In this document: positions 23,841-26,005 of the stretch, piece by piece
Position numbering within the stretch: position 1 is the first letter of the stretch
How the letters are laid out: the number at the start of each line of letters is the position of its first letter
From: Eledone cirrhosa
Lineage: Eukaryota
Assembly: GCA_964016885.1 (NCBI GenBank)
Contig: OZ024746.1
Location: 98,332,001-98,396,000 of the forward strand
Direction: 5' to 3'
DNA length: 64,000 bases
Position numbers and translations under genes: made by a program
The notes under the pieces: generated by a model
What the model was told of the DNA's origin: nothing
Seen by the model: only the letters and a program-made list of their open reading frames with translations
Database searches by the model: none

Positions 23841-24805
23841 TATATACGGTCTGTGTTGGGGGTTTTAAACCTTGCGGAGCCCATCATCTCCCGGTTTCAG
23901 TACTGTTGATTGCTTCTAGAGAATGAGTGAGATTGATAGAAATGAAGTAAAGAAAAAGATAGAAGACGAAGAATTGACCCCAGTATTTGACTGGTACATT
24001 TTTCATCGACCATGTTGGGATGAAAGGCAAAGTTGATCTCGGGAGACTTTGAATGAATACTGCAAAACATTCTATCCGGCGTCCTAACGAGTTTGCCAAT
24101 TCGCCGCCCTAACCGCGAATATATTTTACATAAAAGAAGTTACACAGTGTGACATATTTTTCTATTGAAGTTACATAAGTGGTATATTTTTTATTGTATG
24201 CGCTTATGAGTAGTTGCGTTAGGGACCTTTCACTGGATAGAGAAAGTGGAAAATATATAATTATAAAATGTAGTGAACTTTGAAGTATTTATTCTGTTCA
24301 CTGCGATCTGAGTTCAAAACCTGCCAAGGTCAACTTTGGTTTTCCTCCTTTGGAGGTTGATAAATAAAGTAGTTTAATGCTGGAATCGATTCTCTCTCTC
24401 TCTCTCTCTCTCTATCTATATATATATATATATATATATATATATATATATATATATATATATATATAAATAAATAAATAGATATGTATATATATATTTA
24501 TATATATAAATGAATAAATAAATAAATATGTATATATATATATATATATATATATATATATATATATGAATAAATAAATATGTATATATATATATATATA
24601 TACATACATATATATAGATAATTTAATATATCCACTAACATAAGCGCACAGATGCACGTCCATGCCAGCAAATACACAGGTTATGTCATAGTACCTAGGT
24701 GGTTCAATGCAGGAGGATGCAGAACAATAATATAAAAGACGTAAAATAAGAAAATATTTTTTTTAAAATTTTAAAAAAATTTTTTACTTACTTACTTAAA
24801 TTTTC

Positions 24806-24887
24806 ACTCCAACTAATTAGTTTCTGCAATGGGATAAAGACAGTTACGTAATCCAACTGTCGAGAATTCATTGCGTCATCAGGGAGT
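24806..24887 (-). ncRNA. type I hammerhead ribozyme
   Basis: Reverse complement: ACTCC-CTGATGA-cGCAATG..GACAGTT..AACTGTC..CATTGCa-GAAA-CTAATTAG-TT-GGAGT. Palindromic stem III, GUU triplet. Confidence 0.8.
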
Positions 24888-26005
24888 CTATTCTCAGCTG
24901 AGTCTCCAGGCAATGCGCGGACACTGGCGGCTCATATAAAAATAATAATAATTCGGTAGATAGAACAGGTGGCGAGGACTGGATTCTATGTACTGAAATT
25001 CTCACTGCTTCTAGTCAAATGGCCGATTCTAAAGAATCAATCACGTGACACAGAGGCTAGTTAAAAGGAATGGGATGGTAAGATGACTGACGCCTACTAA
25101 CACCCCAAAAAATTTAGAAGTGGTTTTGGCAGGTTTGCTCGACAAATCAGTGATTTGGAGATAAATATAGATAATTTAATATATCCACTAACATAAGCGC
25201 ACAGATGCACGTCCATGCCAGCAAATACACAGGTTATGTCATAGTACCTAGGTGGTTCAATGCAGGAGTGAAAATTTAAGTAAGTGAGTAAAAAATTTTT
25301 TAAAAATTTTTTTAAAAAATATTTTCTTATTTTACGTCTTTTATATATACATATATATGTATATATATATATATATATATAAATATATATATATATATAT
25401 ATATATATATATATATATATATATACAGAGAGAGAGAGAGAGAGAGAGAGAGAGAGAGAGAGAGAGAGAGAGAGAGAATCGATTCCAGCATTAAACTACT
25501 TTATTTATCAACCTCCAAAGGAGGAAAACCAAAGTTGACCTTGGCAGGTTTTGAACTCAGATCGCAGTGAACAGAATAAATACTTCAAAGTTCACTACAT
25601 TTTATAATTATATATTTTCCACTTTCTCTATCCAGTGAAAGGTCCCTAACGCAACTACTCATAAGCGCATACAATATACAAATTTGAGTATGTGTTGGTT
25701 GTTTACCGACACTTCAGTATGCAGGTTGGAGCACTCAACGAAGTGCGCGGGCTGGTTTGTTTATTCCGGAGTAATGTAAAAACTAGAAGTGTAAGTCAAC
25801 AGTGTAAAATTAGCTTCGTTTATTCATATTCGCTGCTATATATATTTCAATGATAGCAATTATTCAACAGCTATGACCTGAAAACATATGCTTTTAGTTC
25901 CTTAGAAGACTAACAACACACCCTGGATCTGAGCATATCATTGAATTAACAAGGTACAATCTATTACAACATTATGTTTTCCTCTTTTTTCTGTTCAAGT
26001 TCTTA

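What the first reader, a model, noticed from the sequence alone, without database searches (positions are those of the whole stretch)
24192..25676. Nested direct and inverted duplications with a breakpoint at the predicted ribozyme cleavage site
Seen: the HHR at 24806-24887 (-) is predicted to cut between 24811 and 24810. The inverted copy at 25265-25345 starts GGAGTGAAAATTT, the first bases 3' of that cut, within a 4-nt GGAG microhomology to a direct duplicate (about 24615-24715 = 25168-25268). The whole is enclosed by an apparently identical inverted duplication of flanking DNA of about 220 bp (24192-24412 / 25455-25676). Inference: a genomic fossil of a cDNA made from a self-cleaved RNA.
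Basis: partly seen in the sequence, partly recalled or inferred. Interest (0 to 1): 0.7.

Follow-up and report, generated by a model that had tools for sequence, protein, structure and literature searches.

The report
Ribozyme repeat inside a flank fold-back
This is one copy of an abundant 553-base non-coding repeat with a predicted self-cutting RNA motif, likely pasted in by a Penelope-type jumping-gene enzyme; one arm stops exactly at the predicted cut and the neighbouring DNA is mirrored around it, but across the genome only about 2 in 100 arms stop there, so a copy of self-cut RNA is possible rather than shown.

Summary
The structure is real as described. It is a young insertion of a 553-nt, non-coding, type I hammerhead repeat (2,547 exact hits of one 21-mer; animal non-LTR retrozyme) with Penelope-like geometry. 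Two back-to-back arms end in (TA)n, and 26 of 26 clean two-armed copies pair one end at monomer position 81 with one at 203. The 'direct duplication' is only the tandem wrap of the monomer. Breakpoints do not cluster tightly at the predicted cut: 1 of 78 sampled arm ends lies there, and over 99% of passes read through. Genome-wide there is a modest 2-3-fold excess (18, 14 and 9 junctions at cut-1, cut, cut+1, against 2-11 at four controls). A self-cleaved template for this copy is therefore about even odds; the 4-nt GGAG microhomology explains it equally well. The outer 221-bp inverted repeat is unique to this locus, has both outer junctions in sequencing contigs, and is rare (1 clear case in 182 insertions). 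It looks like a fold-back of the left DNA end, as described for LINE-1. The scan has already reported two-armed retrozymes of other families in this genome.

The parts
24192..24412 (+). Native left flank (arm A): 199 nt of locus-specific DNA holding an old SINE-like fragment, ending in (TC)n at 24391-24412
   Evidence: Identical to 25456-25676 reversed; no other near-identical copy found in the genome; an old 30-bp tandem pair at 24136-24196 runs across its outer edge
24413..24607 (.). (TA)n-rich target tract, left
24608..25268 (-). Long arm of the retrozyme insertion: 661 nt, monomer positions 96 to 553 then 1 to 203; 3' end at the fixed position-203 site fused to (TA)n
   Evidence: family 96-99% identical
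24806..24887 (-). Type I hammerhead motif with palindromic stem III; predicted cut between 24811 and 24810; read through intact in this arm; C-A mismatch at the base of stem II
24612..24715 (-). Monomer positions 96-199, second unit (the 'direct duplicate')
   Evidence: exact match to 25165-25268
25265..25268 (.). GGAG microhomology joining the two arms (monomer 1-4 against the complement of 96-99)
25265..25346 (+). Short inverted arm: monomer positions 1 to 81; 5' end at the predicted cut, 3' end at the fixed position-81 site fused to (TA)n
25347..25455 (.). (TA)n then (AG)n tract, right; mirror of the left microsatellites with different lengths
25456..25676 (-). Inverted copy of the left flank (fold-back), joined through ATA to the TA stub of the older element on its right
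   Evidence: junction bridged by 180-nt contigs 25532-25711 with 0 differences in runs X2 and X3
25677..26121 (.). Older two-armed element of another hammerhead-like family (arms 25774-25879 and 26016-26121, 92% alike; extra ~95 nt on the left arm); marks the original right side of the TA tract
   Evidence: 4 of 4 related copies in fetched loci have an AT-repeat tract directly before this end

Best explanation
This is a two-armed insertion of a 553-nt non-coding hammerhead repeat into a (TA)n tract, likely made by a borrowed Penelope-type reverse transcriptase/endonuclease, in which both arms sit on copies of the same left flank, likely because that broken DNA end was folded back or fused with its sister copy. 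Shown: the tandem monomer, (TA)n targets, two fixed 3' ends (81 and 203) always paired one of each, variable 5' ends, the 4-nt join and the unique mirrored flank. Inferred: the enzyme cut the TA tract; two DNA 3' ends primed reverse transcription at the two internal start sites; the cDNAs were joined at GGAG; and the second copy of the left end, after 221 nt, was rejoined through ATA to the original right side. The short arm's stop at the predicted cut is either run-off from a self-cleaved RNA end or a microhomology choice, about even odds. Most copies of the family were made from templates with the cut site intact (uncleaved multimers or re-ligated circles).
For: Family: 1,052 candidates, best copies 96-99% identical; 2,547 exact 21-mer hits; no frame over 72 aa, 37% GC. 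Sample of 50 loci in positional order: 26 two-armed with 81+203, 0 with 81+81 or 203+203, 21 single-armed ending at 81 (11) or 203 (10), 3 other. This matches the two RT start sites and one-sided 'tail' of PLEs (PMC11167929, parts 1-2 of 4 read; PMC8557442, passages). Stem II covaries across subfamilies: 8 of 22 pairs change on both sides, 0 of 500 shuffles reach the covariation score. Outer repeat: identical arms, found only here; both outer junctions in contigs of sample S1; the right neighbour's relatives begin in an AT tract. Fold-backs holding a retro-insertion and inverted duplications at LINE-1 breaks are described (10.1101/2024.12.14.628481, passages).
Against: No autonomous partner was found: four PLE-like coding stretches near copies show no shared terminus by eye. 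Identical arms over 199 nt cannot show that fold-back and insertion were one event. Only 1 of 182 insertions shows a clear enclosing flank duplication, so it is not a regular product. The junction between the two arms was not seen in laid contigs or reads, but most of the short arm was skipped as repeat. Each run's listed contigs showed only one of the two outer junctions, and the three runs are one sample. Cleavage and expression are untested.
Confidence: 0.6

Rival explanations
1. One reading: the copy was made from one self-cleaved 756-nt RNA (cut site, one full unit, then 203 nt) by twin priming, and the short arm ran off the cleaved 5' end.
For: The short arm starts at position 1 and the long arm stops at 96-100, only 15-19 nt past the second priming site. 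Junctions at 553/1/2 number 18/14/9, against 7, 2, 11 and 3 at 536, 540, 549 and 116. Among ends joined to TA, 7 of 25 fall in 552-1, 3 of 32 positions, p=0.007. Both arms end within 12 nt of the cut in 9 of 29 cut-class two-armed loci, against 4 of 40 symmetric junctions elsewhere, p=0.03 (hand counts; test).
Against: Over 99% of passes read through position 1. Other positions are stronger hot spots in the sample (226 three times, six others twice, in 78 ends). L187, L207 and L292 show the same geometry with the short arm starting 5' of the cut. Abutting twin-priming geometry is not enriched: 3 of 26 long arms end at 70-115 (hand count). The window subfamily has a C-A mismatch at the base of stem II. 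For the anole PLE, HHR cleavage was dispensable in vitro and no RNA reads ended at the cut (PMC11167929).
Confidence: 0.45
2. The stop at the cut site is chance: the template was uncleaved or circular and the two cDNAs were joined where GGAG offered microhomology.
For: 4-nt microhomology at the junction; equivalent junctions at 536 (TGCA) and 540; controls reach 7-11 junctions per position.
Against: Two of the three cut-adjacent positions exceed all four controls, and most position-1 junctions show no such microhomology.
Confidence: 0.5
3. The mirrored flank arose first, by hairpin fold-back at the self-complementary (TA)n tract with no retroelement involved, and the retrozyme later landed in its TA centre.
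For: The family targets (TA)n anyway; (TA)n can self-anneal (general knowledge); near-identical inverted repeats are common beside these tracts.
Against: Both features are very young and share one centre. Most neighbouring inverted repeats that were inspected are two-armed elements with TA outside, not inside.
Confidence: 0.3
4. The outer inverted repeat is an assembly artefact (haplotype switch or fold-back read).
For: Arms are 100% identical and separated by microsatellites; no listed piece spans the whole structure; X1 lists only the left junction, X2 and X3 only the right.
Against: The right junction is bridged with 0 differences in two runs (35 nt beyond 25676), and a 369-nt contig leaves at the same base as the left arm does. 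The microsatellites of the two sides differ in length and content.
Confidence: 0.07
5. The outer repeat is the terminal inverted repeat of a MITE or DNA transposon into which the retrozyme jumped.
For: Identical inverted arms around a central insert.
Against: No second copy found in a 3-Gb genome; the arm holds a decayed SINE-like piece and a microsatellite.
Confidence: 0.02

Closest known systems
Animal non-LTR retrozymes (Cervera and de la Pena 2020, PMC7229834, passages read; Li, Clavereau and Pollet 2026, bioRxiv 10.64898/2026.07.22.740005, part 1 of 5 and passages read)
   Same: Non-coding, low-GC tandem repeat with a type I hammerhead per unit; dimers to long multimers; palindromic stem III as in amphibian motifs that cleave as dimers; proposed to derive from PLEs.
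   Different: Monomer of 553 nt, above the 150-450 bp given there. Dispersed copies show two fixed 3' ends and inverted arms; a word search of both main texts for 'inverted' gave 0 hits and 1 hit in a reference title (supplements not seen). RNA, circles and cleavage not shown here.
Penelope-like elements (Frangieh et al. 2024, PMC11167929; Craig et al. 2021, PMC8557442)
   Same: Partial tandems, 5'-truncated inverted arm, tail on one end only, AT-rich or (TA)n targets, two internal RT start sites, hammerhead in the repeat.
   Different: No RT/GIY-YIG ORF. The tail equivalent is 122 nt rather than 30-40. [quoted passage not shown]
LINE-1 twin priming and LINE-1-induced fold-back or inverted duplication (10.1101/2024.12.14.628481, passages read)
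   Same: Two cDNA arms joined by microhomology; a junction holding a retro-insertion between two copies of one DNA end.
   Different: No poly(A) and no TSD; the second priming site is fixed, not variable; arms usually do not abut on the RNA; the fold-back is only 221 bp, returns to the original right side, and sits in an assembled animal genome rather than tumour or cell-line clones.

Membership tests
Animal non-LTR retrozyme | Type I hammerhead motif in each tandem unit | tested here: met
   Core motifs and stems; covariation in stem II (core and stem III columns were fixed by the search pattern and say nothing); Rfam gave no hit
Animal non-LTR retrozyme | Tandem organisation from dimers to long multimers, many loci | tested here: met
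   (array of about 50 units on C4)
Animal non-LTR retrozyme | Non-coding, GC below 45-50% | tested here: met
   longest stop-free frame 72 aa, GC 0.37
Animal non-LTR retrozyme | Monomer within the published 150-450 bp (a descriptive range, not a criterion of the 2026 definition) | tested here: not met
   553 nt
Animal non-LTR retrozyme | Self-cleavage; linear and circular RNAs | not testable with these tools
   needs in vitro transcription and RNA data
PLE-mobilised element | Inverted 5'-truncated arm next to a partial tandem | tested here: met
   26 of 50 sampled loci are clean two-armed insertions
PLE-mobilised element | Tail on one end only (two RT start sites) | tested here: met
   26 of 26 pair 81 with 203; length 122 nt, longer than the published 30-40
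PLE-mobilised element | Insertion in AT-rich or (TA)n DNA | tested here: met
   flanks printed
PLE-mobilised element | Autonomous partner sharing the pLTR | tested here: inconclusive
   four nearby PLE-like coding stretches show no shared end; no genome-wide search was made
Autonomous PLE | RT plus GIY-YIG ORF | tested here: not met
LINE-1-type twin priming | The two arms abut on the RNA | tested here: inconclusive
   met in the window (15-19 nt gap) but only 3 of 26 sampled long arms end at 70-115 (hand count)
MITE / TIR transposon (outer repeat) | Multicopy terminal inverted repeats | tested here: not met

The most novel reading that the evidence does not exclude
About 1-2% of this family's arms, this one included, were copied from ribozyme-cleaved linear RNA. 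The genome would then record hammerhead cleavage of Penelope-mobilised templates in vivo, and this locus would also record a heritable Penelope-induced fold-back in which both cDNAs were primed from sister copies of one broken DNA end.
Probability: 0.3. Interest if true: 0.6.

Novelty: new member of a known kind. Interest (0 to 1): 0.38.

Why it matters
What the hammerhead does in Penelope-like elements is open: for the anole element cleavage was dispensable in vitro and no RNA ends were seen at the cut. A young family with about 2,000 arm ends (estimate) makes the question countable. The counts here say cleaved templates are at most a small minority, while the strict pairing of two fixed ends supports a two-ended priming mechanism in vivo. 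The mirrored flank suggests that these insertions can occasionally rearrange neighbouring DNA as LINE-1 does. None of this is a new kind of system.

Tried and rejected
Rfam at gathering score and at E<=10: no hammerhead family. One search, a 3'-end probe meant for an unbiased sample, hit only 3 places because the window carries a rare variant there; the sample was therefore drawn on positions 1-21 and misses copies that lack them. Control 540 first looked high (44 of 57 called junctions), but most are older subfamilies with another stem II; only 2 have the young subfamily's exact 1-21 downstream. Control 536 fell from 14 to 7 under the same filter. Of five 'enclosing' inverted repeats, L195 is two arms of an older subfamily, L285 is nesting inside another two-armed element, L293 is another repeat family, and L257 (53 nt, 781 nt away) was not inspected. 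No RNA holder listed, and the guessed RNA run X15 laid nothing: no evidence either way. One search listed no joints. MITE reading rejected. Partner PLE not found among nearby ORFs. Five paper searches answered; in the listings and passages seen, none mapped retrozyme or PLE breakpoints against the hammerhead cut, apart from the RNA-read check in PMC11167929. Supplements were not read and subscription papers are not held, so absence from print is not shown.

Full report
Observation. All parts are in the sequence. On the - strand a type I hammerhead runs 24887-24806, with the GUU triplet at 24813-24811, so the predicted cut lies between 24811 and 24810. The 96-nt stretch folds with z = -2.9, although the minimum-energy fold does not form stem III. 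Rfam has no matching family. An alignment of 26 related motifs from several subfamilies pairs 91.9% of cells, with 8 of 22 pairs changed on both sides, all in stem II and its inner hairpin; 0 of 500 shuffles reach the covariation score. The rows were picked by a pattern that fixes GAAA, stem III and the 3' strand of stem I and excludes A just before GAAA, so those columns are uninformative. The window's subfamily has a C-A mismatch at the base of stem II where others have C-G. The inverted copy (25265-25346), the 104-nt direct repeat, the GGAG overlap and the identical outer arms (24192-24412, 25456-25676) are confirmed.

What it is. The inner part belongs to a young repeat family: 1,052 candidates, with the best 96-99% identical, and 2,547 exact hits of the 21-mer that follows the cut. 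The unit is 553 nt, 37% GC, with no frame over 72 aa. Numbering from the first base after the cut, the window holds a long arm (96 to 553, then 1 to 203) and a short inverted arm (1 to 81), so the direct repeat is just the wrap into a second unit. I took the 50 loci behind the first 100 hits, in positional order on one chromosome, dropping older diverged neighbours at two loci. Of these, 26 are two-armed and all 26 pair an end at 81 with an end at 193-203; 21 are single-armed, ending at 81 (11) or 203 (10); 3 are irregular. The 3' ends are fused to (TA)n or a related microsatellite. This is the geometry described for Penelope-like elements: partial tandems, an inverted 5'-truncated arm and a tail on one end only (PMC8557442, passages), the tail being the gap between two internal RT start sites, with both DNA strands cut and extended (PMC11167929, parts 1-2 of 4). 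As a non-coding tandem type I hammerhead repeat it fits the animal non-LTR retrozymes (PMC7229834, passages), which a 2026 preprint derives from PLEs. No autonomous partner was identified.

Test of the cut-site claim. In the sample the 78 arm 5' ends are spread round the monomer: 1 at position 1 and 3 within 1-10, a rate of 0.16% per base, or about 4 per position genome-wide (likely an underestimate, as the sample favours long arms). I then searched the genome for a conserved word preceded by a non-consensus base and sorted the hits into substitutions and true junctions. Position 1: 14 junctions in 19 hits, 13 loci including the window. Position 2: 9 in 30. Position 553: 18 in 36 examined of 53; the 17 not examined are further units of one tandem array whose 3 examined hits were substitutions. 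Controls: 549, 11 in 21, four of them from one duplicated place; 536, 14 in 22, of which 7 have the young subfamily's exact 1-21; 540, 2 under the same filter; 116, 3 in 34 examined of 71, the other 37 being units of one array. That gives 13.7 junctions per position at the cut against about 6 at controls, p = 0.0015 if hits are independent and hot spots are ignored; neither assumption holds well. Among ends joined to TA within 30 nt, read by hand from the first 100 of 122 hits, 7 of 25 fall at 552-1 (p = 0.007). Both arms end within 12 nt of the cut in 9 of 29 cut-class two-armed loci, against 4 of 40 symmetric junctions elsewhere (hand counts; p = 0.03). Against this, over 99% of passes read through position 1; position 226 is hit 3 times in 78; and L187, L207 and L292 show the window's layout (long arm ending at 104-106, partner starting by microhomology) with the partner starting 5' of the cut. 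I conclude that a small cleaved-template class probably exists, about 2% of arms counting background, and that the window's junction belongs to it at about even odds.

The outer repeat. Its 199 unique bases have no other near-identical copy among the scored hits, only partial 78-90% matches to an old SINE-like repeat, so it is not a transposon end. The left copy looks native: an old 30-bp tandem pair crosses its edge. The right copy abuts an older two-armed element whose relatives begin directly after an AT-repeat tract in 4 of 4 fetched copies, so the ancestral order was likely flank, (TC)n, (TA)n, older element, and the mirrored flank is the intruder, joined through ATA. Contigs of one sample bridge the right junction with no differences (X2, X3), and one leaves at the same base as the left arm does (X1); none spans the whole structure. 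Among 182 distinct insertions with both flanks, the window is the only clear case of an enclosing duplication of unique flank; L021/L311 has a one-sided 105-nt inverted copy and L099 a 71-nt one that includes the element's end. For LINE-1, fold-back junctions holding an insertion are explained by replication and fusion of one broken end, and inverted duplications by self-annealing of an end (10.1101/2024.12.14.628481, passages). Either would fit here, since (TA)n is self-complementary. Whether the fold-back and the insertion were one event cannot be told from sequence.

Mechanism, with status. Shown: family, targets, fixed paired ends, variable 5' ends, microhomology, unique mirrored flank. 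Inferred from PLE biochemistry: a borrowed RT/endonuclease cut the TA tract and primed two ends at sites 203 and 81. Inferred from LINE-1 precedent: both primers were copies of the left end. Open: cleavage, circles, partner, order of events.

Novelty and verdict. A new member of a known kind. The scan's notes list several two-armed hammerhead families of other unit lengths in this genome (unchecked notes); look-ups by this sequence and by the words for cut-site breakpoints and fold-back returned nothing. What this locus adds is a first count of breakpoints against the cut, which weakens the strong claim and leaves a small excess, and one rare fold-back. Interest 0.38.

Noticed in passing
window 26274-26407: Near-perfect 134-nt palindrome between microsatellites carrying CTGATGA...GAAAC on both strands; looks like a symmetric two-armed insertion of another hammerhead-like family.
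   Followed up: no
window 25677-26121: Older two-armed element with a hammerhead-like core at 26010-26058 and about 95 extra bases on one arm; a relative lies at about 36590.
   Followed up: partly
G000:C4:291978855-292007555 (L304, L305, L230-L242): Two-armed insertion with the usual 203 and 81 ends whose second arm is about 50 units (28 kb); most units share one rare substitution. Fits rolling-circle copying or later tandem expansion.
   Followed up: partly
G000:C12 about 24.468-24.533 Mb and G000:C2 about 312.619-312.667 Mb (L208, L212, L306-L309): Long tandem arrays of the family, tens of kb, possible source loci.
   Followed up: partly
L021:578-682 and 1081-1185; L311: 105-nt inverted copy of flank directly joined to an arm that lacks its normal 3' end; the insertion is present twice about 0.85 Mb apart in opposite orientation.
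   Followed up: partly
L084/L085, L083, L141/L176, L142, L169: Insertions in which both arms stop within 2 nt of the predicted cut; the best candidates for copies of cleaved RNA.
   Followed up: partly
L243-L303: Older subfamilies share the hammerhead core and the position-81 end but have different, compensated stem II sequences; several have C-G where the young subfamily has C-A.
   Followed up: partly
L313:3493-6880: Two-armed element of another family (825-nt arms, about 145-nt tail) with a retrozyme copy and a PLE-like coding fragment nested inside.
   Followed up: partly
window, whole: About 20 further CTGAnGA...GAAA motifs on both strands, e.g. 5849-5902, 36031-36073, 57594-57622, 58062-58098; many may be chance.
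   Followed up: no
window 25286: The short arm has G where the long arm has A at monomer position 22; none of 100 sampled copies shows G there. RT error or A-to-I editing.
   Followed up: partly
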